Shown one piece after another: positions 1 to 22,200 of a stretch of DNA of 58,521 nt. Under the pieces are notes generated by a model. It searched no databases, was not told where the DNA came from, and worked only from the letters and a program-made list of their open reading frames with translations. The DNA is from a virus (Duplodnaviria; Caudoviricetes): positions 1 through 58,521 of the IMG/VR virus record IMGVR_UViG_3300046167_000389; one strand, 5' to 3'. Position numbers and translations under genes: made by a program. The stretch's first letter is position 1. Each line of letters starts with the position of its first letter.

Positions 1-323
1 CACAGATCTAGAGGGGTAGGGGGTGGCAGTCGCCCCGGTCGGCCCGACGATTAAAAAAATAGATTGATTTATGCCGATTTCTTTAAGTCATTGTTTTTAT
101 TATATTTTTTATTAATCTATGACTGAATAGTTCACGGGATGACTGTGATTTTAAAAGTAAAATCAATTGCTTAGATAAAACTGGCTCATAGAATACTGGC
201 AGAATATGCAATTAATCAGAATATTGTGACATAAAAGCACCAGCCGTGCCATCGATCCAGACCATCGTGCAGGGTGGCGGCTGGCTGACGAACATCAGAC
301 GCTGGGGCGGGAAGCGGCATTGT
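1..323 (+). repeat. Left direct terminal repeat (323 bp)
   Basis: Aligns without gaps to 58199-58521, with 14 substitutions counted by hand. Confidence 0.9.
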
Positions 324-619
324 ATACCCCCAGCCCTCTTTTCCTGCCTGCTTACCATCACCTGCTCGAACAGCCAGCCTGAGCAGCCTACACCAGCCCA
401 TGACCCATGATATGCTGCGCCTTGCTTGCCGCTCTGTGTGGCGTTCTCTGAGCCTGTGGCAGGGTGTTTGCCGCGAAATCAACATAGGCCTCACGCTCGA
501 TATAAGCGCCACTGAATAGGGGTAATTGTTTTGGGTATAATTATGCCATCTAACTGTTTTGCTACTGTGTGAGGCTTACAGCGCCTCTCAGAGCATACTA
601 CATTCCGGTCATCGGACAC

Positions 620-647
620 AAAAAAACCGGCTCGAAAGCCGGTCTCT
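620..647 (-). terminator. Intrinsic terminator ending the leftward early operon
   Basis: Minus strand ACCGGCT-TTCG-AGCCGGT followed by a T run. Confidence 0.85.
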
Positions 648-673
648 ATGGTTTGATTGTTTGGGCTGGCTGG

Positions 674-928
674 TCAGGAATGCCTCGAACCATCAGCCTC
701 GACGCCAACCCACATGAGGCCGGTGTTAACCATCACGCTTCCATCGTTGAAACCTAGTTGAGGCTGGGCTGATAGCAGGAACTCACAGAGCGGCTGCTTT
801 ACCTGATGCCAGTCATGTAGAGTGCAGATCGATATGATCTGTTCGTTGGTCAGATGCTCAAGTTCGCTGTCAGGCAAAGCTTCAAGGCTGACGGCTGCGG
901 GGCGGTTTTGCGCTGCCAGATCCATCAT
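674..928 (-). CDS. Hypothetical early protein
   Basis: ORF; start trimmed to the ATG overlapping the stop of the upstream ORF. Confidence 0.6.
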   Translation of the reverse strand: MMDLAAQNRPAAVSLEALPDSELEHLTNEQIISICTLHDWHQVKQPLCEFLLSAQPQLGFNDGSVMVNTGLMWVGVEADGSRHS

Positions 929-1110
929 TTGATCCCCCAAGCCCAAGCATCGGCGGCGTGTGGCAAATAGCCGATTTCATCACGCACAAGGCTGTCGATG
1001 TCGGCATCACGCTCGATATCGATTGGCTCCTGCACTTCAGCGAATTGAACTTGGGCTGACCACTGAGCAGCCTGTGTGCCGGTGGTGGTTTCGAGAAATA
1101 GTTTTTCCAT
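925..1110 (-). CDS. Small acidic hypothetical early protein
   Basis: ORF translationally coupled on both sides. Confidence 0.6.
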   Translation of the reverse strand: MEKLFLETTTGTQAAQWSAQVQFAEVQEPIDIERDADIDSLVRDEIGYLPHAADAWAWGIK

Positions 1111-1196
1111 CAGGATATACCCCAGATTAAATTGATAAGATTAATTGCGAACAGGATCGCAACCGTTGAGGCAGCGGCTCGATTGAGCCACCGCAT
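1110..1196 (-). CDS. 28-aa hydrophobic peptide (MRWLNRAAASTVAILFAINLINLIWGIS)
   Basis: Read by hand; TGATG overlap with the next gene; single TM-like stretch. Confidence 0.5.
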   Translation of the reverse strand: MRWLNRAAASTVAILFAINLINLIWGIS

Positions 1197-1213
1197 TTTT
1201 TTGATTGGATCGA

Positions 1214-1936
1214 TCACGACAGGTAACCGGCGCTGCGCTGACCACCGGAAACGCCAGAGCGTAGGCCTACACGATCACCTGCGCTGCGCCCTGCCTTCGA
1301 TGCACCTGCGCTTCGGTTGCTGGTGTGACGCCGTCCACCTGAGCGCAGCCGTGGGAACTCTTTGCGGAATGCATCATCCAGCGCACGGTCAGCCACTATT
1401 ACCAGCGCCGTGCCGTTCGAGGCTTTGGGCTGCTCGACATTCGAGCGGCTTTCACGATGCATTTGTTCCAGCCGGTTACACAGGCGTGATGCCATAGCAT
1501 TCATAAAGCTGGACCGGATCGAGCGGGCGTGATGATAGAAGGCCTCTTCCTCATAATCTGCGGTGTGCTTATAGCTCAGGAACTCAAGTTCCATCGAAGA
1601 CTGCATCAGGCTGATCAGATACATTGCATTGTCTACTTTGTGTTGCTGGCCGAAGATCGTAAGTTTTGATCCGGTTGCTACCAATTTCACTTCACAGAAT
1701 GCTTGCAGACCGTACAGCGCACCCCAAACCGGATGCCTTACCTTTTTACCCAGCGACATGCTGTCTTTTGTGTATTCGGTCAGGCTGATGTCTAGCTCAG
1801 TCAGGGTGCAATTGTATTGGTCCTGAAGTGATTGCATGGCCTGAGCAGCGGCCACTGCCTCTGCCTCTGTACAGCCGTTTTCGACAGTGCGTTGGCTGAA
1901 TGCTTTAAGCTTTTTTAAGATTGATTGTTTGTCCAT
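1214..1936 (-). CDS. DUF2786-family phage protein
   Basis: N-terminal ILKKLKAF...GCTEAEAVAAAQAMQSLQDQYN resembles DUF2786; C-terminal GRSAGDRVGL. Confidence 0.75.
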   Translation of the reverse strand: MDKQSILKKLKAFSQRTVENGCTEAEAVAAAQAMQSLQDQYNCTLTELDISLTEYTKDSMSLGKKVRHPVWGALYGLQAFCEVKLVATGSKLTIFGQQHKVDNAMYLISLMQSSMELEFLSYKHTADYEEEAFYHHARSIRSSFMNAMASRLCNRLEQMHRESRSNVEQPKASNGTALVIVADRALDDAFRKEFPRLRSGGRRHTSNRSAGASKAGRSAGDRVGLRSGVSGGQRSAGYLS

Positions 1937-1962
1937 TGGATTGGTCCTTTTTGGTTGGTTGG

Positions 1963-2130
1963 TTATTGCTTTGGGATTTGGATGGTGTAGCGGGTTTGGG
2001 CGTGTTTGAAATAATAGACGCCGTCCTTTTCACCCATGAACATGAAGTCAAACTTCACGGCTTCCATGAAAGTCTCGAAAGCTTTTTCAGTGTTTGAGCT
2101 AGTGATGCGGGGTTCTCTAATGCCATACAT
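1963..2130 (-). CDS. 55-aa hypothetical early protein (MYGIREPR...IPKQ)
   Basis: Read by hand; GGAGG RBS upstream. Confidence 0.65.
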   Translation of the reverse strand: MYGIREPRITSSNTEKAFETFMEAVKFDFMFMGEKDGVYYFKHAQTRYTIQIPKQ

Positions 2131-2132
2131 GA

Positions 2133-2408
2133 TCACACCTCCACATAAACGATGGTGTCAGGCTTCAGGAATATTTCCTTGCAAACATCGTCAGCCGAAC
2201 TGCATGAGAAATTGGCAAAGGCTGGCATCCCATATTTTGATTTTGGGTTGTAGTGATTTCTTACAAATTCGCCTTTGGCGTTTGGCTTGCGTCTGAAATA
2301 TTCACCCTCTTTCACAGAGCGCAGCGCGACTGCCTGCATCCCGTTTTCCATCGTCATAATATCTGCCGCCATTTCATTGAGCAGGTTCAGGTTTGGTTCA
2401 TTGGTCAT
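2133..2408 (-). CDS. Hypothetical early protein
   Basis: ORF carrying the conserved leader motif and RBS. Confidence 0.75.
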   Translation of the reverse strand: MTNEPNLNLLNEMAADIMTMENGMQAVALRSVKEGEYFRRKPNAKGEFVRNHYNPKSKYGMPAFANFSCSSADDVCKEIFLKPDTIVYVEV

Positions 2409-2432
2409 TGGTCTCTCACTTTCGTTGGTTGG

Positions 2433-2491
2433 TAGGCTGTCTCATCAGTGACCGTTGCCTAAGCGATCAGACGGGCTGATGCCCGTTTCGA
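2433..2491 (-). ncRNA. Type II hammerhead ribozyme with pseudoknot (HH1)
   Basis: UC-GAAA-CGGGC(AUCA)GCCCG-UC^-UGAUCG(CUUAGGCAA)CGGUCA-CUGAUGA-GA; loop I UAGGC pairs with the 3' GCCUA; complete catalytic core. Confidence 0.88.
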
Positions 2492-2493
2492 TT

Positions 2494-2647
2494 TAGTCGT
2501 TTTCTTCGTTTTCTTTTTCGGTTGCTTTCCAATCTTCAAAGCAGTCAGCGCAAAGCAACTCGTTTGGGGCAGGGTGATAAAATCCCTGCACCCCATGACC
2601 GCACCCAGCGCAATAAGTTGTTCCATCTGTTCTCTTGTCCATTTCAC
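2494..2647 (-). CDS. Small hypothetical protein, probably frameshifted
   Basis: An alternative frame ends DCFEDWKATEKENEEND-stop just before HH1. Confidence 0.45.
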
Positions 2648-2654
2648 CTACCCC

Positions 2655-2897
2655 TTAAAATGGAATTTCATTGCGGTTCATGTCACGCTCACAAAAGCTG
2701 AAACAAACTGTGACGGGCTGCTTTAAACTTGAAATCAAAGCTTGCATTGCAACCGCATCGAAATATGCATCTTCAAGGTTGGCTGGATATTCACCGGCAT
2801 ATTCGCCGTGGTTGTATTCGTCTGCCTCATAATAGTGGGCCTGACTGGTGCTATCTTGAAATCTTAAAGAATTGATTTGGTTTGGTTCATTGGTCAT
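2655..2897 (-). CDS. Acidic hypothetical early protein
   Basis: ORF with leader motif; shares its MTNEPN start with the 2408 ORF. Confidence 0.7.
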   Translation of the reverse strand: MTNEPNQINSLRFQDSTSQAHYYEADEYNHGEYAGEYPANLEDAYFDAVAMQALISSLKQPVTVCFSFCERDMNRNEIPF

Positions 2898-3131
2898 TGG
2901 TCTCTCCAGTTCGTTGGTTGGTGTTCAGGCACAGATGCCCGTCACCCCTGTTAACATGTCTGAATTAATTATGTCCACAATAAACTGCCAATATACCGCG
3001 ATAAGTTAACAGGCCTGTAGAGCGCATATAAGCGCCACTGAGTGCGTTAACAGTTTCTGCCACTTAGAGTTCATGAAATCTGCTAGACCCCACTCAGCGG
3101 CGATTTTCGCTTTTTTCGGGGTAATTTTGCC

Positions 3132-3161
3132 AAAAAAAAGGCCCGTCCGAAGACAGGGCCC
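3132..3161 (-). terminator. Intrinsic terminator
   Basis: GGCCCTGTC-TTCG-GACGGGCC followed by T8. Confidence 0.85.
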
Positions 3162-3182
3162 AGTTCAGGGAGAATTTACTAG

Positions 3183-3358
3183 TCAGCCGGTGGCTTTTTC
3201 CAGCCGGTCAATGGACCGGTTTAGCTTGGCTGCTTTTCGTTGCAATGCCAGCAACCGGCGTCGTCTCAGTTCGACGGCTGCGGGCTGGGGTGGTGGCTGC
3301 ATATGAGAACTGGCCCAGTCATAAAATCTGACGGCTTATGTTTGAAGCTTTTGCCCAT
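3183..3358 (-). CDS. Small basic coiled-coil protein (frameshift in a T homopolymer)
   Basis: MGKSFKHKPSDF joins YDWASSHMQ...LEKATG if one T is added. Confidence 0.45.
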
Positions 3359-4259
3359 CACGCTGCCTCCAGAAAACGGTTGTCCGAAATCCATTTATTA
3401 ACTTCTAATTCACGCTGCATCATATTAGCTGCGCGGTTTTGATTGCGGCATCAGTCTGACGCAGAGCGAAGCCGTTTCGATCATCGGCATAGGTGGCATA
3501 ATTGGTCCAAGCAGATACCAGAGCGAATTTGTTTTTACCTCTGACTGAGGCCTCTGACTGATACAGCGAGAACATTTTGTCTGCTTTGTTTTCTACCTGC
3601 CGCTTGCTGTCGGGGTTGGGCTTTGGAGCCATCATAGAGTTGAGCAGCGCCTTTACTGTGTCATCGGTCAGGCTGGTTTGGGCAAATACTTTCAGCCGTG
3701 CGCTGTCAGCGTAAAAATCGTTCTTCGCTGTCCGAAGCTGTTTGATAAAACCTTCCATAGAAAACTGGCTGCTATTCCTACGGCGCACCTTCGAGTGTTC
3801 TCCCGATACCATCCCATTGAGGCAAAACGCATCTATCGCGCCGAATAGCGTTGTGTTCGAGCCAGAGCCACCATCGATCGAGTGCAAGGCAATGATGCGC
3901 TGCTTGATGGTTGTTTGGTGTTCGTCGGTTTCAATCTGTGTTGCGATAGATGGGAATTGAACATCCATCATTCCAAAAGCACCATTTCTGCCAGACTGAA
4001 ATCTAAGCTGCGCGCCTTCAGTATCGGCTGGGTCCATGTTCTCGGTCACCTGTTGCCAGACGCCCTCAAAAAATGATCGGTGGCTGGCGCATGAAAACGT
4101 GTCTCCCACATGCCCCAGTACTTTTCCGGTGTTACCGTCGATCACAAATTTGTGCCGGTCCTGTCGGCTGGCCTCAAACACCGGATCGAAGTCTAAAGTG
4201 GTTGGCAGTTCGAGGTCTTGGCTGAAGTTTTGAAAATCTAACATATTTCTCTCTTTCAT
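3358..4259 (-). CDS. DUF932-like phage protein (3' frameshift)
   Basis: Motifs IIALHSIDGGS and AIDAFCLNGM; true C-terminus probably NRAANMMQRE...LEAA in the shifted frame. Confidence 0.75.
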
Positions 4260-4284
4260 TGATTGGTTGGTCTGTTCGTTGGTT

Positions 4285-4343
4285 GCTGACTGATCGTCAG
4301 ACCGAAGGCATCACCCTCCGATAACGGCCCAAAGGCCGTTTCA
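4285..4343 (-). ncRNA. Second type II hammerhead-like ribozyme (HH2, variant stem II)
   Basis: GAAA-CGGCC(UUUG)GGCCG-UU^-AUCGGAGG(GUGAUG)CCUUCGGU-CUGACGA; begins right after the upstream stop codon; the 10.1/11.1 positions are U/U. Confidence 0.7.
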
Positions 4344-4559
4344 CTATGCAACCATAAACAGGCGCTCTTGCGCCTCTGCAATTTGCCACTGCTTCATAGA
4401 CCGGCCCTCGAAAATCGGCACGATGCGGTCATTACGCTCGACAACGATATAATTGCATTGATCCAGCCGATAGCCGCGCAGCGCGTGGTCAAGGCGCTTT
4501 TCGTTTGAGTAGGATTTGGCTGATTTCAATTTGATGGCGCTGCGATTACGTTTCTGCAT
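4344..4559 (-). CDS. Hypothetical early protein
   Basis: Start moved to the ATG after AAGGACCAATCAA. Confidence 0.7.
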   Translation of the reverse strand: MQKRNRSAIKLKSAKSYSNEKRLDHALRGYRLDQCNYIVVERNDRIVPIFEGRSMKQWQIAEAQERLFMVA

Positions 4560-4671
4560 TTGATTGGTCCTTTTCATTTTCATTTTGTGTCTGCTCGTTA
4601 AGCCAGACGTTTATGCTTTCAATTTCACCGAAGAATAAATCGTCGGGCATTTCCCTCAAGTCGTTTGACAT
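4546..4671 (-). CDS. 41-aa acidic peptide (MSNDLREMPDDLFFGEIESINVWLNEQ...)
   Basis: Read by hand; AAGG upstream. Confidence 0.5.
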   Translation of the reverse strand: MSNDLREMPDDLFFGEIESINVWLNEQTQNENEKDQSNAET

Positions 4672-4762
4672 TCTTGAACCTTTTTTGCTGTCAGTTAAAA
4701 ATGATGCTCAAAACATCGAGCCAGCACGATAAAAACCCGTACAAGGGCGAAGAAATATCTGA

Positions 4763-4972
4763 TTAGCGCACCGCCTTAATTAGGTGGTTTTCCATAGTTA
4801 TGATGCCAAACCATTCTCTGCCTTTTCCGGTGATATGTGGGCGGTTGGCTACAGTCAGTTCGCCATCGCCACGATACTGAGGGCCAAATAGGCTGGTCTC
4901 TATATACGCGAGCGGCTTGCCTACGTTTTCTTTGCAAGCTTTCTTGGTGGGATAATTTGCTATCATTGTCAT
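4763..4972 (-). CDS. Hypothetical early protein, first gene of the leftward operon
   Basis: ORF with leader motif downstream of a promoter. Confidence 0.75.
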   Translation of the reverse strand: MTMIANYPTKKACKENVGKPLAYIETSLFGPQYRGDGELTVANRPHITGKGREWFGIITMENHLIKAVR

Positions 4973-5027
4973 TTTATTGGTCCTTTTCGTTGGTTGGTTG
5001 ATAGGCGCAAATCAAGCGCCTGTCAGA

Positions 5028-5057
5028 AGTCTACAGGAAGCCGCTTAATAAATGCAA
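5028..5057 (-). promoter_or_regulatory. Leftward early sigma70-type promoter
   Basis: TTGCAT-N18-TAGACT. Confidence 0.6.
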
Positions 5058-5255
5058 CAGTTAAATTGCGAACTAATAACCTGACTAATTGGTCAACTAA
5101 CGATTTTAAAAAATCATTTTTTATTTTCTCACCTACCTTCACCTACGTCAGGTGACTACATGTAGTTGCAATATGGTCCATATATACTCAGTGAAGGTAT
5201 GATTTGTTCGCGCAGGGAAATTTTTTGATTTTAGTCTGACTGTTAACTTATTTGA

Positions 5256-5285
5256 TTGACAACCTGTTAACTGCTGTAGTAGACT
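5256..5285 (+). promoter_or_regulatory. Rightward early sigma70-type promoter
   Basis: TTGACA-N18-TAGACT; predicted start site falls at the leader motif. Confidence 0.65.
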
Positions 5286-5317
5286 ACTTACTCAACCAAC
5301 TAACAAGGACCAATCAA

Positions 5318-5494
5318 ATGAAAGCTACAGCAATACATCACTTAATGAATGACTACTTGGATAACCATACTCTGGTTAAGGCTTGGCGTGTGCTGGACTA
5401 CGTGCGGAAGTATCCTACTGCACTCAGTGGCCTTAACCGCACTGAGCTGGCTATCTACAAGGCCATCGTCAACAACTGCGGCGAGGAGATGTAG
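5318..5494 (+). CDS. Small hypothetical early protein
   Basis: ATG after AAGGACCAATCAA. Confidence 0.7.
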   Translation: MKATAIHHLMNDYLDNHTLVKAWRVLDYVRKYPTALSGLNRTELAIYKAIVNNCGEEM

Positions 5495-5495
5495 A

Positions 5496-5834
5496 ATGCA
5501 AGCTAGTATTAAAATCACTCAGCGTATGCTTAATAAGTCCATCATCGATGCTAACAAGTCAGTGGTGGCATTCGCCAAAGAGTATCTGCCATACGACTAC
5601 GATCACATATCTACCCTGCCAAGCAGGAAGCTGGTTTTTACAGGTGTATGGACACACGCCGATAGCTTACCTGTTCCGGTACGCCTGTATCTAAGACCTC
5701 GCGGTGATAGGCTGCTATCTATCGGCAGTTTAAAGCTGTTTGCAAAGGCCGGTGATACTGTAACCTTCAGCCCAGCCTCTGACCCTTCCAACTACCAACT
5801 GGAGCTAGGTCTGATCGAAGGAGAGGCGGCATGA
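5496..5834 (+). CDS. Possible stand-alone B3/EcoRII-N-like DNA-binding domain protein
   Basis: KSIIDA...VRLY..RGDRLLSI.SLK.FAKAGDTV resembles N-terminal domains of MvaI/BcnI-family proteins (by eye). Confidence 0.45.
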   Translation: MQASIKITQRMLNKSIIDANKSVVAFAKEYLPYDYDHISTLPSRKLVFTGVWTHADSLPVPVRLYLRPRGDRLLSIGSLKLFAKAGDTVTFSPASDPSNYQLELGLIEGEAA

Positions 5835-6223
5835 GTGGATGCGGAAGCACTCTAGACTTTGAGTACATAAAAGCAATTATTCGCTACAACCAGATGGATA
5901 AGAAAAAGGTAGTTTATCTTAACTATCATGGTGACCTCCTGAAACTTCAAGAGGAAGTCAGTATGAATGGTAAAAGGTATATTGGATACCGCTGCCTAAG
6001 CTCAATTGATCCATTTAACCGCTGGAACCTTAACAAACATTTCATAGGTAAATGGACTACTGGAACGAAGGTAGAATTTGTACGTGACGGTGAGAAGGTT
6101 CTATTTGCCGGTCTCTCATCTCCACGGTTGGAAGAGCTAACTTCAGACATGACCGGCATGTTGGAAGTGTGGAACCTAAACATCCAGAGGTATGAACAAA
6201 CTACTGAGAGGTGTGCGGCATGA
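5831..6223 (+). CDS. Hypothetical protein
   Basis: Coupled ORF with RBS. Confidence 0.65.
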   Translation: MSGCGSTLDFEYIKAIIRYNQMDKKKVVYLNYHGDLLKLQEEVSMNGKRYIGYRCLSSIDPFNRWNLNKHFIGKWTTGTKVEFVRDGEKVLFAGLSSPRLEELTSDMTGMLEVWNLNIQRYEQTTERCAA

Positions 6224-19104: not shown

Positions 19105-19112
19105 ATCCCAAT

Positions 19113-19144
19113 AAAAAAGCCCTCAGATCGCTTGACCTGAGAGC
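19113..19144 (-). terminator. Terminator of the leftward structural transcript
   Basis: GCTCTCAGGTC-AAGC-GATCTGAGGGC followed by T6; overlaps the -35 of the sRNA promoter. Confidence 0.8.
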
Positions 19145-19160
19145 GCATTTACACTAAAAT
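19132..19160 (+). promoter_or_regulatory. Sigma70-type promoter of the candidate sRNA
   Basis: TTGACC-N17-TAAAAT. Confidence 0.7.
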
Positions 19161-19166
19161 GTATCT

Positions 19167-19238
19167 TGAATGGGGTTGAGATTGGTCCATCCTGTTCGTT
19201 GGTTGAGACCCCTGCTTTGGTTGGCGGGGGTCTCTTTT
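19167..19238 (+). ncRNA. Candidate ~70-nt trans-acting antisense sRNA
   Basis: Lies between the promoter and the terminator GAGACCCCTGC-TTTGGTTG-GCGGGGGTCTC-TTTT; contains ATTGGTCC and GTTCGTTGGTTG, complementary to early-gene leaders. Confidence 0.72.
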
Positions 19239-22200
19239 ATTCTATACCCAGATCCATCATCTGTTCGTCTATGCTGATAGTAGGAACACTTTCGTCTTCT
19301 GTATTGCCTGTTACTGAAGAAGGGTACGCAAGAGACATAGTTTCTAAGTTGTCGCCTACTTTTCTACCCGCTATTGTTACAGCACCACTCACACCTATCT
19401 GCCTCGCCATACGGCTGTATTCTTTGATCGTTTCAATCACTGTTTTCTGCATGGGGCCACGGCCCTTAATTCCAGCCACAATTAATTCAGGCACTTTAAA
19501 GAGCAGTTCCATTTGGGTTTTCTGGTTCGCTATTGGAAGCTGGTCGATATACTTTTTAAAGAATGCGGAGCCAATGGCTGCAGCTTGTAGACTGGCATCA
19601 CCTCTACCAAATAATACACCTACGTTAGCACCAATTAATCTAGCTAAATTCTTTTGAAGATCTGGTGTATCTGACATTACCTGATTAAACGTCTTAGGGT
19701 CTGTCATTCTCTTTTCTAGTTGTAGGCCTTGAAAGATCATTTCTCCTATAGCATTTTTTTCGTCAGCACTTAAAATCCCAGTGTCTACCATCACATCTAG
19801 AATAGTAGGGTCTCCTGAGCGTCTACTCATAGGCTGTAACATACGTTTAGCTACCGTGGTGAAGTCTGGTGGATCACCCGCCCCTGCAAATATCTCATCG
19901 ATTGTTGCATTTCTAAAATCAATCTTAGCTTCAGGAGAAATAGAACCCGCTTCGACAGCTTCCCTAGCCAGCCTTGAGTAACCCTCTACTGGGGTGTCTG
20001 TTGCTAATGTTTTCCCTATAGCGTCTGATAGTCTTTCGGTGTTTCTTACAAATCCTAACTCATCAATTAGCCTCGCTGCGGTTTTATTGGCCTCGTACAG
20101 CGTAAGCAGATCTCCTTTGAAGTTATCGAACTGATTAATAAGATTTTGGTTTTGATTGATAAATGTGTCTAAGGCTTTGAGGTCTAAAACGCCTGTAGTA
20201 ACATCTTCAAACTCCATAATCTTAGATCGTAAGAAGTCTTCTTGAGCTTTGCTTATAGTTAATCCCAGCAATACAGGTTCGTCGGCTAGGGCAGGTGGCA
20301 AGTAGTCAGGAGTAGCCCCAGTCCTAGAGAAGTCTACTGTAGGGCCGTCTTCAGGAGCATCTTCAGGCTTAGGATCTCTACTGTAAGTCTCCCCTTCAGG
20401 ACGGTTGAACATCTCGTCCAATCTTTCCTGCGTAGACTCAAAGTTTGGCAACTCATCTCTAGGAACAGGGTCTCCATCTCCTGCGGCTTCAGGCGGCACA
20501 GCTTCAGTTACTTCATCTTGAAATTGTCTTTCAAAGGTACTTCTTCTGCCATCGGGTGGAAAAATATCATTACCAGATCCGGGTTCTCTAAAGGAAGGAT
20601 CACCTACTGGCTCAGTAATCATCTCCCCATTCTCATCAAACTGCACCTGACCAAATTCATCTCGTACAGGGCGCTGGGCTGCAGCCGTAGCACGGTAAGG
20701 GTAGGCGGTGTTCTCAGGATAGATTACATCATCAGTAGTGGCTGCGTCAGTAGTAGGTGGTACAGGCTCCTCGACGTTCTCTGCAGCGGCCTTCTTAGCA
20801 GCTAGAGAATCTTCCATGCGGATTAATTCAACTCTATCTGCAGCGGCGTCAGTAAACTCAGCGGCCTCTCTTAGCTCTCTAAATTTTTCATCTGCCTCTG
20901 CACCACCGGAGCCAAAGCCCTCTCTTAATACGGCGGTATCTCTAATACTTGTGCCGCCCTTAGTCTCTGTAGAGAGTACATCTTTTACAAAATACCGTGT
21001 AAATCTTTTATTAAGCGCAGCACTAAATCCACGGGCTTGGTCAATAACACTACCAGCCGCCCCGTCTAAGGTACTTAGCTGATCAATAGATGCAGCGGCT
21101 AGATCATCAAATAAACCCGCCTTCTTAAATTCACTATTAGCGGCAGATGCTCTAGATTGATCCAGCATCTCAGAGCGAAACTGAAGTATTCTTCCTACAG
21201 TAACACTTCCGTTTTTTCGTATCTCTGCTTGCAGATTATCAATAACGTCATCAAGCTGACCGCCGCCAGCTATTGTTCTACCTTCAGGAAGGCCGTCTTT
21301 TAATTTCTGTATTACTGCAGAAAGTTGTTCTCCAGATACAGACTGTTCCTGATTAATTCTATCCCAGAGTGCAGTCTCCATACTTCTGATATTATCTTTA
21401 GCTTGGAAGATAGTTTTCTGCGTAAGGATGGAAGCCGCCGCAGGGTCTGTTTTACTCATGGCTTTTAAAGCTTCTGCCACTTTATCTTCTTCTAGCTTTA
21501 ATTTAGAGTCGATCACACTAGAATAGAAATTTGTTCGTAGAGCTTTAGCCATCTCTGTATTACCGGCCCTAGCCATAATATCAGAGGCCTTTAGAATGCC
21601 CGACAAGACTAGATTGGCCCGTTCCATAACGTCTTTACCAAACTCAGGGCTTTCAACCATTAACCTCTTCTGCATTGCCATTAGCAGCGGGTTACCAGTT
21701 AAGTCTCCTGCCGCAAGATTACCTCCTAAAGAGTCGGCTGTCTCTATGTCTGATATTATTCGCTCAGGAGTGTAGAACTCTGCCTGTTCTCTAAGTGCGG
21801 CTGCAGAGGTTGTATTTCCATTACTTTCAACAAAATCGGCCTCTTCTAGTAGGCCTTTTCTAGTTTGCTCTGCAGTTTTTAGGATTTGATCTACTGCTAG
21901 TTTTCTAGCTCCGGTGTCACTCCAGCTAGAAAATACTTGATCGACTGCCTTACGCCCTTGTCTGTATGCCATTCCTAAAGGTGATGCTTTTGAGATAGCT
22001 CCTACATTGGCCCCAGAAATACCACCCAGTAATTCTGCCCCCATCATAACCCAAGGGTTATCTCCTAGACCACCAGCTTCTACTGCAGCCACTCCTGCAG
22101 CCGCTCCTGTGGTGGCAGCGGCTTCTGTTGCAGCAAATTTAGCAGGATTATTTCTGATCCCTTGCATGAGAGGATTAGTAAGTCCAAATCCCGTCTTAGC

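What the first reader, a model, noticed from the sequence alone, without database searches (positions are those of the whole stretch)
4285..4343. Second, sequence-unrelated hammerhead with non-canonical stem II before the DUF932-like gene
Seen: immediately after a stop codon, GAAA, 5-bp stem III, GUU triplet, 8-bp stem I and CUGACGA, followed within ~10 nt by CAACCAACGAACAG (the best sRNA match). The stems differ completely from HH1 yet pair, which supports real structure. Positions 10.1/11.1 are U/U instead of G-C, and loop UGAU could pair with the downstream GUCA. It may be a natural slow or switchable variant, or carry a sequencing error. Since the sRNA site abuts the pseudoknot strand in both ribozymes, sRNA binding might modulate cleavage (inference).
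Basis: partly seen in the sequence, partly recalled or inferred. Interest (0 to 1): 0.75.

Follow-up and report, generated by a model that had tools for sequence, protein, structure and literature searches.

The report
Phage hammerhead ribozyme with U-U variant
This is a genuine type II hammerhead self-cleaving RNA sitting between two early genes of a marine phage, and its odd U-U pair next to the catalytic core is a rare natural variation that has already been described, so the element is real but ordinary.

Summary
On the minus strand, 4284-4346 carries every invariant hammerhead core nucleotide, a 6-bp stem III, a GUU cleavage triplet, an 8-bp stem I, and a loop I/3'-tail pseudoknot (UGAU with GUCA). 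This is the type II topology. Rfam Hammerhead_II scores it 35.3 bits (cut-off 37; E 4e-7 for this genome). Homologous copies in related contigs score 38.5 and 51.0 bits.

The U10.1/U11.1 mismatch is not a sequencing error. It recurs in 11 of 16 related contigs, as 6 distinct sequences whose stem I covaries.

It is also not new. Perreault et al. 2011 (PMC3088659, section 8) report natural hammerheads whose stem II starts with U10.1-U11.1, and cite earlier work that this is the best-tolerated mismatch.

Most likely function: self-cleavage between 4323 and 4322 inside the leftward polycistronic mRNA. This would separate a small upstream gene from the DUF932 gene.

The neighbouring CAACCAACGAACAG is a recurrent mRNA leader, also found before genes that have no ribozyme. 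Control of cleavage by an sRNA is unsupported.

Verdict: new member of a known kind, low to moderate interest.

The parts
4344..4583 (-). Upstream small ORF (79 aa by the longest-ORF rule; probable start ATG at 4559, judged from the leader consensus). Its UAG stop (4346-4344) overlaps the 5' strand of stem II.
   Evidence: no Pfam or PHROG match
4348..4353 (-). GGUUGC, the 5' strand of a 6-bp flanking helix that closes the junction. It lies in the last codons of the upstream ORF.
   Evidence: MFE folds; invariant in 9 of 9 variants, so it gives no covariation evidence
4339..4343 (-). U11.1 (4343) and the core G12 A13 A14 A15.1 (4342-4339)
4324..4339 (-). Stem III hairpin: 6 bp including A15.1-U16.1, loop UUUG
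   Evidence: an A-U pair is co-inserted in 7 of 9 homologous variants
4322..4323 (-). Predicted cleavage site: after U17 (4323), before A1.1 (4322)
   Evidence: inferred from the hammerhead numbering applied; no biochemical test
4301..4322 (-). Stem I hairpin: 8 bp, loop GUGAUG (4314-4309)
   Evidence: 5 of 8 pairs change on both sides among 9 homologous variants
4294..4300 (-). Core C3 U4 G5 A6 C7 G8 A9
4291..4293 (-). 3' strand of stem II: U10.1 (mismatched with U4343), C10.2 (pairs with G4344), A10.3
   Evidence: same spacing as the Rfam consensus (alignment, no indel)
4287..4290 (-). GUCA, the pseudoknot strand that pairs with UGAU 4313-4310 of loop I
   Evidence: invariant in 9 of 9 variants; other type II hammerheads in the fetched loci have other complementary loop/tail pairs; Perreault 2011 sections 6-7
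4281..4286 (-). GCAACC, the 3' strand of the flanking helix. It overlaps the start of the leader motif.
4272..4285 (-). CAACCAACGAACAG, part of a recurrent A/C-rich mRNA leader that precedes the Shine-Dalgarno sequence
   Evidence: 17 matches with up to 3 mismatches against 3.9 expected; contexts
3420..4259 (-). DUF932 gene. The true start is probably ATG 4244, because a relative has a frame-breaking indel between the two ATGs.
   Evidence: Pfam PF06067 E 3.9e-10
2431..2493 (-). HH1, the other type II hammerhead of the genome (G10.1-C11.1, GUC, 5-bp pseudoknot UAGGC/GCCUA)
   Evidence: 36.3 bits

Best explanation
HH2 is a functional type II hammerhead self-cleaving ribozyme of the pseudoknot class. 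It carries the rare but documented U10.1/U11.1 variation.

It is transcribed as part of the leftward polycistronic mRNA. That unit runs from a promoter-like site at 5132-5103 to an intrinsic terminator at 3157-3142. The ribozyme folds into stems III and I, a minimal stem II (U-U plus one C-G pair), and a loop I/tail pseudoknot. It then cuts between U4323 and A4322.

The upstream fragment, carrying the small ORF, ends in the stem III hairpin with a 2',3'-cyclic phosphate. The downstream DUF932 mRNA begins with a 5'-OH, the stem I hairpin and the A/C-rich leader. The two cistrons therefore acquire separate stabilities or translation efficiencies.

Shown: the sequence and structure, homology, covariation, and position within an operon. 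Inferred: cleavage itself and its consequence for expression.
For: - Core: all invariant core positions, A15.1-U16.1 and a non-G H17 are present.
- Rfam: RF02276 scores the window 35.3 bits, E 4.1e-7 per genome. Homologous copies score 38.5 and 51.0 bits, above the cut-off of 37.
- Chance control: 2 descriptor hits in the window against 0 in each of 200 simulations.
- Covariation, 9 distinct homologous variants: 98.2% of 221 cells paired, against 23-47% when partners are slid. 5 of 8 stem I pairs change on both sides. 0 of 500 shuffles reach the observed covariation score.
- Covariation, 10 hammerheads sharing loop GUGAUG: 98.9% paired, and 12 of 19 pairs change on both sides.
- Persistence of U/U: present in 11 of 16 lineage contigs, as 6 of 9 distinct sequences, with the helices maintained.
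- Literature, Perreault 2011, sections 6-8 read: pseudoknot-class type II hammerheads; stem II of 2 bp or even 1 bp with k_obs above 1.2 per min; natural U10.1-U11.1 examples; multiple hammerheads in phage-like polycistronic RNAs that cleave in vitro and in vivo.
- Literature, Olzog 2021, passages read: three type II hammerheads near phage-like genes cleave in vivo in D. vulgaris.
- Literature, 2019 review, passage read: processing of polycistronic transcripts is the proposed role.
- Context: sense orientation, intergenic, internal to an operon.
Against: - There is no biochemical or transcript-end evidence for this sequence.
- The window copy is below Rfam's gathering score. One U/U variant scores only 30.3 bits, and another is not listed at E up to 10. 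Two relatives' contigs give no RF02276 hit at E up to 0.01.
- U/U leaves a single Watson-Crick pair in stem II, and the pseudoknot is only 4 bp with one G-U. In Perreault's test construct, shortening a 6-bp pseudoknot to 4 bp cut the rate about 20-fold.
- Nested-structure MFE folds pair the tail GUCA with core U4-C7 instead of loop I. This is an inactive alternative, 3.3-5.9 kcal/mol better than the core-free fold before any pseudoknot energy is counted.
- The functional consequence for gene expression is inferred by analogy only.
Confidence: 0.8

Rival explanations
1. Attenuated or conditional ribozyme. The U/U plus GUU/GUA forms would be deliberately slow or switchable versions. Their cleavage would be tuned by the ribosome terminating on the overlapping stop codon, by competition of the GUCA tail between loop I and core U4-C7, or by the conserved anti-leader RNA encoded at 19146-19206 (+).
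For: - In the 9 distinct variants, U/U always goes with H17 = U or A (6 of 6), and G-C with H17 = C (3 of 3). The pairs a/h and b-f/g,i suggest two separate co-occurrences.
- The G-C forms differ from each other: one has an extra U plus 2 bp, one an extra U plus 3 bp, and one no extra U. This suggests repeated switching between the two states.
- The alternative pairing of the tail with the core appears in every MFE fold.
- The plus strand at 19192-19205 is perfectly complementary to 4272-4285. The surrounding element is conserved in 3 of 4 relatives searched, including Roseobacter phage CRP-738.
Against: - Perreault 2011 says U-U is the best-tolerated mismatch. GUA was faster than GUC co-transcriptionally in one viroid hammerhead (Carbonell 2006). 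'Slow' is therefore not established.
- The association rests on about two independent events.
- The leader motif also occurs before at least 4 genes that have no ribozyme, so its adjacency follows from short intergenic spacers.
- In a duplex-energy scan the DUF932 leader window ranked about 20th of 11,660 windows, alongside unrelated coding sites.
- CRP-738 keeps the 19.2-kb element but has no RF02276 hit.
- Hammerheads normally cleave during transcription, before a trans RNA could act (established knowledge).
Confidence: 0.1
2. Catalytically dead relic. The RNA would keep its hairpins for another reason, such as 3'-end protection or attenuation of transcription, but would no longer cleave.
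For: - Sub-threshold Rfam scores for all U/U forms.
- Loss of the most conserved stem II pair.
- A short pseudoknot.
Against: - All 11 invariant core nucleotides are unchanged in 9 of 9 variants, although they are unpaired and free to drift. Loop I and the tail are also invariant.
- A relic that needed only hairpins would not conserve GAAA and CUGACGA.
- Natural U-U hammerheads are reported among real members of the family.
Confidence: 0.08
3. Chance match or assembly/sequencing error at 4293/4343.
For: The score is just below the Rfam cut-off.
Against: - E 4.1e-7 per genome.
- 0 of 200 simulations give a descriptor hit.
- An identical U/U form occurs in independent contigs: L003, L006, L167, L170.
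- Five further U/U sequences occur: L120, L132, L171, L176, L179.
Confidence: 0.02

Closest known systems
Type II hammerhead ribozymes of the pseudoknot class (Rfam RF02276; Perreault et al. 2011, PMC3088659)
   Same: - Same topology: stems I and III closed by loops, stem II open.
- Same core, and a 2-position stem II.
- One A, then a 4-nt tail that pairs with loop I, at the same spacing as the Rfam consensus.
- Phage intergenic context, with more than one hammerhead per operon.
   Different: - U10.1/U11.1 replaces G-C, and the triplet is GUU, so the score is 35.3 bits against a cut-off of 37.
- An extra 6-bp helix (4353-4348 with 4286-4281) may close the junction. I did not see it in the other GUGAUG-class examples I inspected by eye.
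Natural hammerheads whose stem II begins with a U10.1-U11.1 mismatch (Perreault 2011, section 8 and Figure 5)
   Same: The same deviation at the same position, reported as occurring in nature. Perreault cites Ruffner 1990 for it being the mismatch that best supports cleavage.
   Different: I could not see Figure 5 or the supplementary figures. I therefore do not know which organisms carry those examples, or whether a U-U natural example was itself assayed.
Agrobacterium tumefaciens triple hammerhead flanking ardA, and Desulfovibrio vulgaris type II hammerheads
   Same: Several type II hammerheads lie between small phage-like genes in one transcript. Cleavage was shown in vitro and in vivo.
   Different: They have canonical cores and come from cultured hosts. 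Here the neighbours are a DUF932 gene and ORFs of unknown function in an uncultured marine phage.
CChMVd (+) hammerhead with an extra nucleotide between A9 and G10.1 (De la Pena and Flores 2001, as summarised in PMC3705267)
   Same: Relatives of HH2 (L159, L161), and the unrelated hammerheads in L133 and L169, carry an extra U at exactly this place. In CChMVd, a U there raised the trans-cleavage rate 3-4 fold.
   Different: The window copy itself has no extra nucleotide if its U4293 is read as 10.1. CChMVd is a viroid hammerhead, not a phage type II one.

Membership tests
Hammerhead ribozyme, type II (RF02276) | Invariant core: C3 U4 G5 A6 N7 G8 A9 and G12 A13 A14 | tested here: met
   CUGACGA at 4300-4294 and GAA at 4342-4340; unchanged in 9 of 9 homologous variants
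Hammerhead ribozyme, type II (RF02276) | A15.1-U16.1 pair, and H17 not G, before the cleavage site | tested here: met
   A4339-U4324; U4323
Hammerhead ribozyme, type II (RF02276) | Three helices around the core, with stems I and III closed by loops and stem II open (type II permutation) | tested here: met
   Stem III 6 bp, stem I 8 bp, both hairpins; the 5' and 3' ends leave through stem II
Hammerhead ribozyme, type II (RF02276) | Helices supported by covariation | tested here: met
   98.2% of 221 cells paired, 5 of 8 stem I pairs change on both sides, 0 of 500 shuffles reach the covariation score; 12 of 19 pairs change on both sides in 10 class members. Stem III shows only a co-inserted A-U pair within the lineage.
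Hammerhead ribozyme, type II (RF02276) | G10.1-C11.1 pair (quasi-conserved, not strictly defining; the family literature lists U-U exceptions) | tested here: not met
   U4293/U4343. Perreault 2011 section 8 accepts U10.1-U11.1 in natural members. Homologous copies with G-C exist.
Hammerhead ribozyme, type II (RF02276) | Score at or above Rfam's gathering cut-off (37 bits) | tested here: not met
   The window copy scores 35.3 bits. Homologues score 38.5 (L004/L159) and 51.0 (L007/L008/L161). U/U variant L132 scores 30.3, and L120 is not listed.
Hammerhead ribozyme, type II (RF02276) | Pseudoknot between loop I and the 3' tail after stem II (majority feature of type II) | tested here: met
   UGAU 4313-4310 with GUCA 4290-4287. 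It never varies within the lineage. Different complementary loop/tail pairs occur in HH1, L131 and L147.
Hammerhead ribozyme, type II (RF02276) | Site-specific self-cleavage giving 2',3'-cyclic phosphate and 5'-OH ends | not testable with these tools

The most novel reading that the evidence does not exclude
Within one phage lineage the ribozyme may exist in two interchangeable settings: a 'fast' form (G10.1-C11.1 with GUC) and an 'attenuated' form (U10.1/U11.1 with GUU or GUA). The attenuated form would be a conditional processing switch. Its GUCA tail toggles between loop I (active) and core U4-C7 (inactive). The choice would be biased by the ribosome stopping on the overlapping UAG, or by the conserved anti-leader RNA at 19146-19206, and would set how much DUF932 mRNA is released.
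Probability: 0.08. Interest if true: 0.6.

Novelty: new member of a known kind. Interest (0 to 1): 0.3.

Why it matters
It adds a well-documented natural series to the hammerhead family: 6 U-U and 3 G-C sequence variants of one homologous ribozyme. That series could serve as a ready-made comparison of how the 10.1/11.1 pair, the H17 nucleotide and an extra U after A9 affect cleavage in a pseudoknot-class type II hammerhead.

It also shows that Rfam's cut-off misses functional-looking U-U members in marine phages. It does not open a new kind of mechanism. The biological role of phage hammerheads, processing of polycistronic early mRNAs, stays a hypothesis here as elsewhere.

Tried and rejected
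- **RNA evidence for cleavage.** The look-up of sequencing runs listed no RNA holder. It gave only two runs, kept as contigs, with 5-7% of the sampled words. No statement on expression follows from this.
- **Earlier scan notes.** The tool was not open.
- **Cultured relative as a test system.** Roseobacter phage CRP-738 (67.5% identity over 20% of 2000-6000) has no RF02276 hit at E up to 0.01. It is not a model for HH2.
- **sRNA target ranking by duplex energy.** Not discriminating: mean -22.0, sd 4.4 kcal/mol. The DUF932 leader window scored -38.9, about 20th of 11,660 windows, with coding sites scoring as well. I draw nothing from it.
- **Nested-fold energies.** These cannot include the pseudoknot, so they neither support nor exclude the active fold. 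The HH1 fold is not better than shuffles (z -1.4), which is expected for a pseudoknotted ribozyme.
- **Terminator reading of stem III.** Its tail is not U-rich. The scan did not call it, and it called only 10 terminator-like sites against 5.7 expected.
- **Function of the neighbours.** Pfam and PHROGs gave nothing for the upstream small ORF.
- **Supplementary figures of Perreault 2011 (S6, S7, Dataset S1).** I could not see them. They may show which U-U examples were assayed.
- **Pattern scan.** It is not a census.

Full report
**What the window is.** The window is a complete 58,521-base IMG/VR virus record, with CheckV completeness 100%. Its only GenBank phage relative at the DNA level is Roseobacter phage CRP-738, with 67.5% identity over 20% of 2000-6000. 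Genes from about 1 to 5300 lie on the minus strand, and a divergent plus-strand operon starts at 5349. That operon includes an integrase and a thymidylate synthase. The finding lies in the minus-strand block, between a small ORF (4344-4583) and a DUF932 gene (3420-4259; Pfam PF06067, E 3.9e-10).

**The observation.**
- UAG stop at 4346-4344, then U11.1 at 4343 and GAAA at 4342-4339.
- A stem III hairpin at 4339-4324: 6 bp counting A15.1-U16.1, loop UUUG.
- The triplet GUU, with the scissile bond between 4323 and 4322.
- An 8-bp stem I at 4322-4301 with loop GUGAUG.
- The core CUGACGA at 4300-4294, then U10.1 at 4293.
- GUCA at 4290-4287, complementary to UGAU in loop I.
- CAACCAACGAACAG at 4285-4272.

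Rfam's default scan lists nothing. The E-value scan gives Hammerhead_II (RF02276) at 4284-4346 with 35.3 bits, and at 2431-2493 (HH1) with 36.3 bits. Both are just under the 37-bit cut-off, and both have E about 2-4e-7 for this genome. A strict descriptor of my own requires GAAA, a stem III of at least 5 bp, UH, a stem I of at least 5 bp, and CUGANGA. It finds exactly these two sites in the window, and no site in any of 200 first-order Markov simulations.

**Relatives.** A protein-guided search with the DUF932 product returned six close IMG/VR loci. A DNA pattern built from the loop, the core and the tail, with no stem requirement, returned more loci from IMG/VR and from metagenome contigs.

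I kept the copies that share the upstream context and dropped three rows: L168 (cut by the contig end), L169 (a different hammerhead) and L175 (not a hammerhead). This leaves 16 contigs including the window.
- 11 contigs carry the U/U form: window, L003, L005, L006, L132, L167, L170, L171, L176, L178, L179.
- 5 contigs carry a G10.1-C11.1 form: L004, L007, L008, L173, L174.
- By distinct sequence, there are 6 U/U and 3 G-C variants.

The U/U state therefore cannot be a sequencing or assembly error.

**Rfam scores of the variants.** The G-C variants score 51.0 and 38.5 bits, above the cut-off. The U/U variants score 35.3 and 30.3, and one is not listed at E up to 10. Two relatives' contigs show no RF02276 hit at E up to 0.01.

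**Structure support.**
- On the 9 distinct homologous variants, 98.2% of 221 cells form standard pairs, against 23-47% with slid partners. 5 of 8 stem I pairs change on both sides, and 0 of 500 shuffles reach the covariation score.
- The 4 unpaired cells all come from the two variants with a 1-nt bulge in stem I, which MAFFT aligned with a gap elsewhere.
- Stem III varies within the lineage only by a co-inserted A-U pair, present in 7 of 9 variants.
- Loop I, the GUCA tail, the core and the flanking helix (4353-4348 with 4286-4281) never vary. Within the lineage they are conserved but give no evidence on pairing.
- Across 10 hammerheads that share loop GUGAUG, 98.9% of cells pair and 12 of 19 pairs change on both sides. 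Five of those rows passed a stem filter first, so that count is partly circular.
- Pseudoknot covariation is visible across unrelated type II hammerheads in the fetched loci: UAGGC/GCCUA in HH1, UGAUC/GAUCA and UGGCC/GGCCA in L131, UGAC/GUCA in L147.

**Comparison with what is known.** Perreault et al. 2011 (PMC3088659; I read sections 6-8 and searched passages) describe exactly this architecture.
- Type II hammerheads are common in bacteria and phage-like regions.
- Most of them have a pseudoknot of four or more pairs between loop I and the nucleotides just after stem II.
- Stem II is often 2 bp, and in one tested case 1 bp, with k_obs above 1.2 per min.
[quoted passage not shown] A full-text search for 'U10.1' with 'hammerhead' finds only this paper. 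The window copy has the same spacing as the Rfam consensus, with no indel in the alignment: two stem II positions, one A, then a 4-nt tail. It is the consensus type II hammerhead with G-C replaced by U-U.

The extra U between A9 and G10.1 in relatives L159 and L161, and in the unrelated L133 and L169, also has a precedent. The CChMVd hammerhead carries an extra A10 there, and replacing it with U raised the trans-cleavage rate 3-4 fold (PMC3705267, passage read).

**Mechanism.** The ribozyme is in sense orientation and internal to a transcription unit. That unit is bounded by a promoter-like site at 5132-5103 and a strong terminator at 3157-3142, which has a T8 tail. These are consensus matches, and promoter-like sites were not enriched (3 found against 7.2 expected).

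The best-supported reading is co-transcriptional self-cleavage that separates the upstream small cistron from the DUF932 cistron. The downstream mRNA is left with a 5'-OH, the stem I hairpin and an unstructured A/C-rich leader.

This role is the one proposed for bacterial and phage hammerheads generally (2019 review PMC6765202, passage read). It is backed by in vitro and in vivo cleavage of multi-hammerhead phage-like transcripts and of three D. vulgaris type II hammerheads (PMC8782182, passages read). For this sequence, cleavage and its effect on expression are inferred, not shown.

**The 14-mer and the sRNA idea.**
- CAACCAACGAACAG is part of a leader that recurs 17 times with up to 3 mismatches, against 3.9 expected.
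- It typically lies just upstream of AGGA or GAGAG and CCAAU..AUG. It also occurs before genes with no ribozyme upstream, at 2907, 4983, 5293 and 1948.
- Its adjacency to both hammerheads is most simply explained by two elements sharing short intergenic spacers.
- It overlaps the flanking-helix strand (4286-4281), not the pseudoknot strand.
- The complementary sequence exists on the plus strand at 19192-19205, just before a strong plus-strand terminator hairpin. It lies in the spacer between convergent operons.
- That spacer is conserved in 3 of 4 relatives searched, including CRP-738, with an invariant block of about 50 nt. CRP-738 keeps the spacer but has no RF02276 hit.
- The spacer is a lead in its own right, but nothing ties it to ribozyme cleavage.

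**A pattern worth noting.**
- In the 9 variants, U/U goes with H17 = U or A (6 of 6), and G-C goes with H17 = C (3 of 3).
- The three G-C forms are built differently: one has an extra U plus 2 pairs, one an extra U plus 3 pairs, and one no extra U.
- This hints at repeated conversion between two settings of the same ribozyme, but it rests on about two independent events.
- The effect of H17 is context-dependent. In a viroid hammerhead, GUC was faster than GUA post-transcriptionally but slower co-transcriptionally (PMC1636495).
- In all five variants folded, the nested MFE pairs the GUCA tail with core U4-C7. This alternative would be inactive.

These points sustain a low-probability 'attenuated or switchable' reading.

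**Verdict.** HH2 is a real type II hammerhead and a new member of a known kind. The non-canonical stem II is a documented natural variation, so interest is low to moderate.

Noticed in passing
window 19105-19245, both strands: This is the spacer between convergent operons, with a terminator hairpin for each strand. Its central block is perfectly complementary, on the plus strand, to the early-gene leader 14-mer. An invariant block of about 50 nt is conserved in 3 of 4 relatives searched, including Roseobacter phage CRP-738 at 77% identity. It could be a 3'-UTR-derived anti-leader RNA, or simply another leader copy on the minus strand.
   Followed up: partly
window 839, 1948, 2418, 2907, 4272, 4983 (-), 5293 (+): An A/C-rich leader (CAACCAACGAA..) recurs, followed by AGGA or GAGAG and CCAAU..AUG, before many early genes: 17 matches against 3.9 expected. 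Similar leaders follow type II hammerheads in unrelated phage contigs L009, L037, L057 and L114. Those contigs were found with a pattern that required the leader.
   Followed up: partly
L003, L004, L005 about 2700-2990, compared with window 4244-4290: In three relatives an extra small gene lies between the hammerhead and DUF932. It is flanked on both sides by copies of the leader motif. This suggests the leader acts as a junction for gain or loss of gene cassettes. The ribozyme stays with the upstream gene.
   Followed up: no
window 2431-2493 (-): HH1, a canonical type II hammerhead: G10.1-C11.1, GUC, 5-bp pseudoknot, 36.3 bits. It directly follows the UAA stop of a 49-aa ORF and precedes a gene whose first codons and leader duplicate those at 2897-2920.
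   Followed up: partly
window 4244-4259 (-); L006 about 2990-3010: The DUF932 ORF has two in-frame ATGs, at 4259 and 4244. A relative has a 1-nt indel between them, and its protein match starts at residue 6. The second ATG, preceded by GAGAG, is therefore probably the real start. Likewise, the upstream ORF probably starts at 4559 rather than 4583.
   Followed up: partly
L131, L147, L114: Other phage contigs carry clusters of 3, 4 and 3 type II hammerheads within a few kb. Several share loop GUGAUG and tail AGUCAG with HH2.
   Followed up: no
window 530-655 (+); L004 5898-5967 (-); L005 5997-6076 (-): There is a sub-threshold Rfam STnc50 hit (28-36 bits, cut-off 55). Its only good part is a GC hairpin preceded by A7 on the plus strand, which is a hairpin followed by U7 on the minus strand. 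It is most likely an intrinsic terminator of the minus-strand genes, not an sRNA.
   Followed up: no
L133, L169, L159, L161: An extra U between A9 and G10.1 occurs in four different type II hammerheads. Two are HH2 homologues and two are unrelated.
   Followed up: partly
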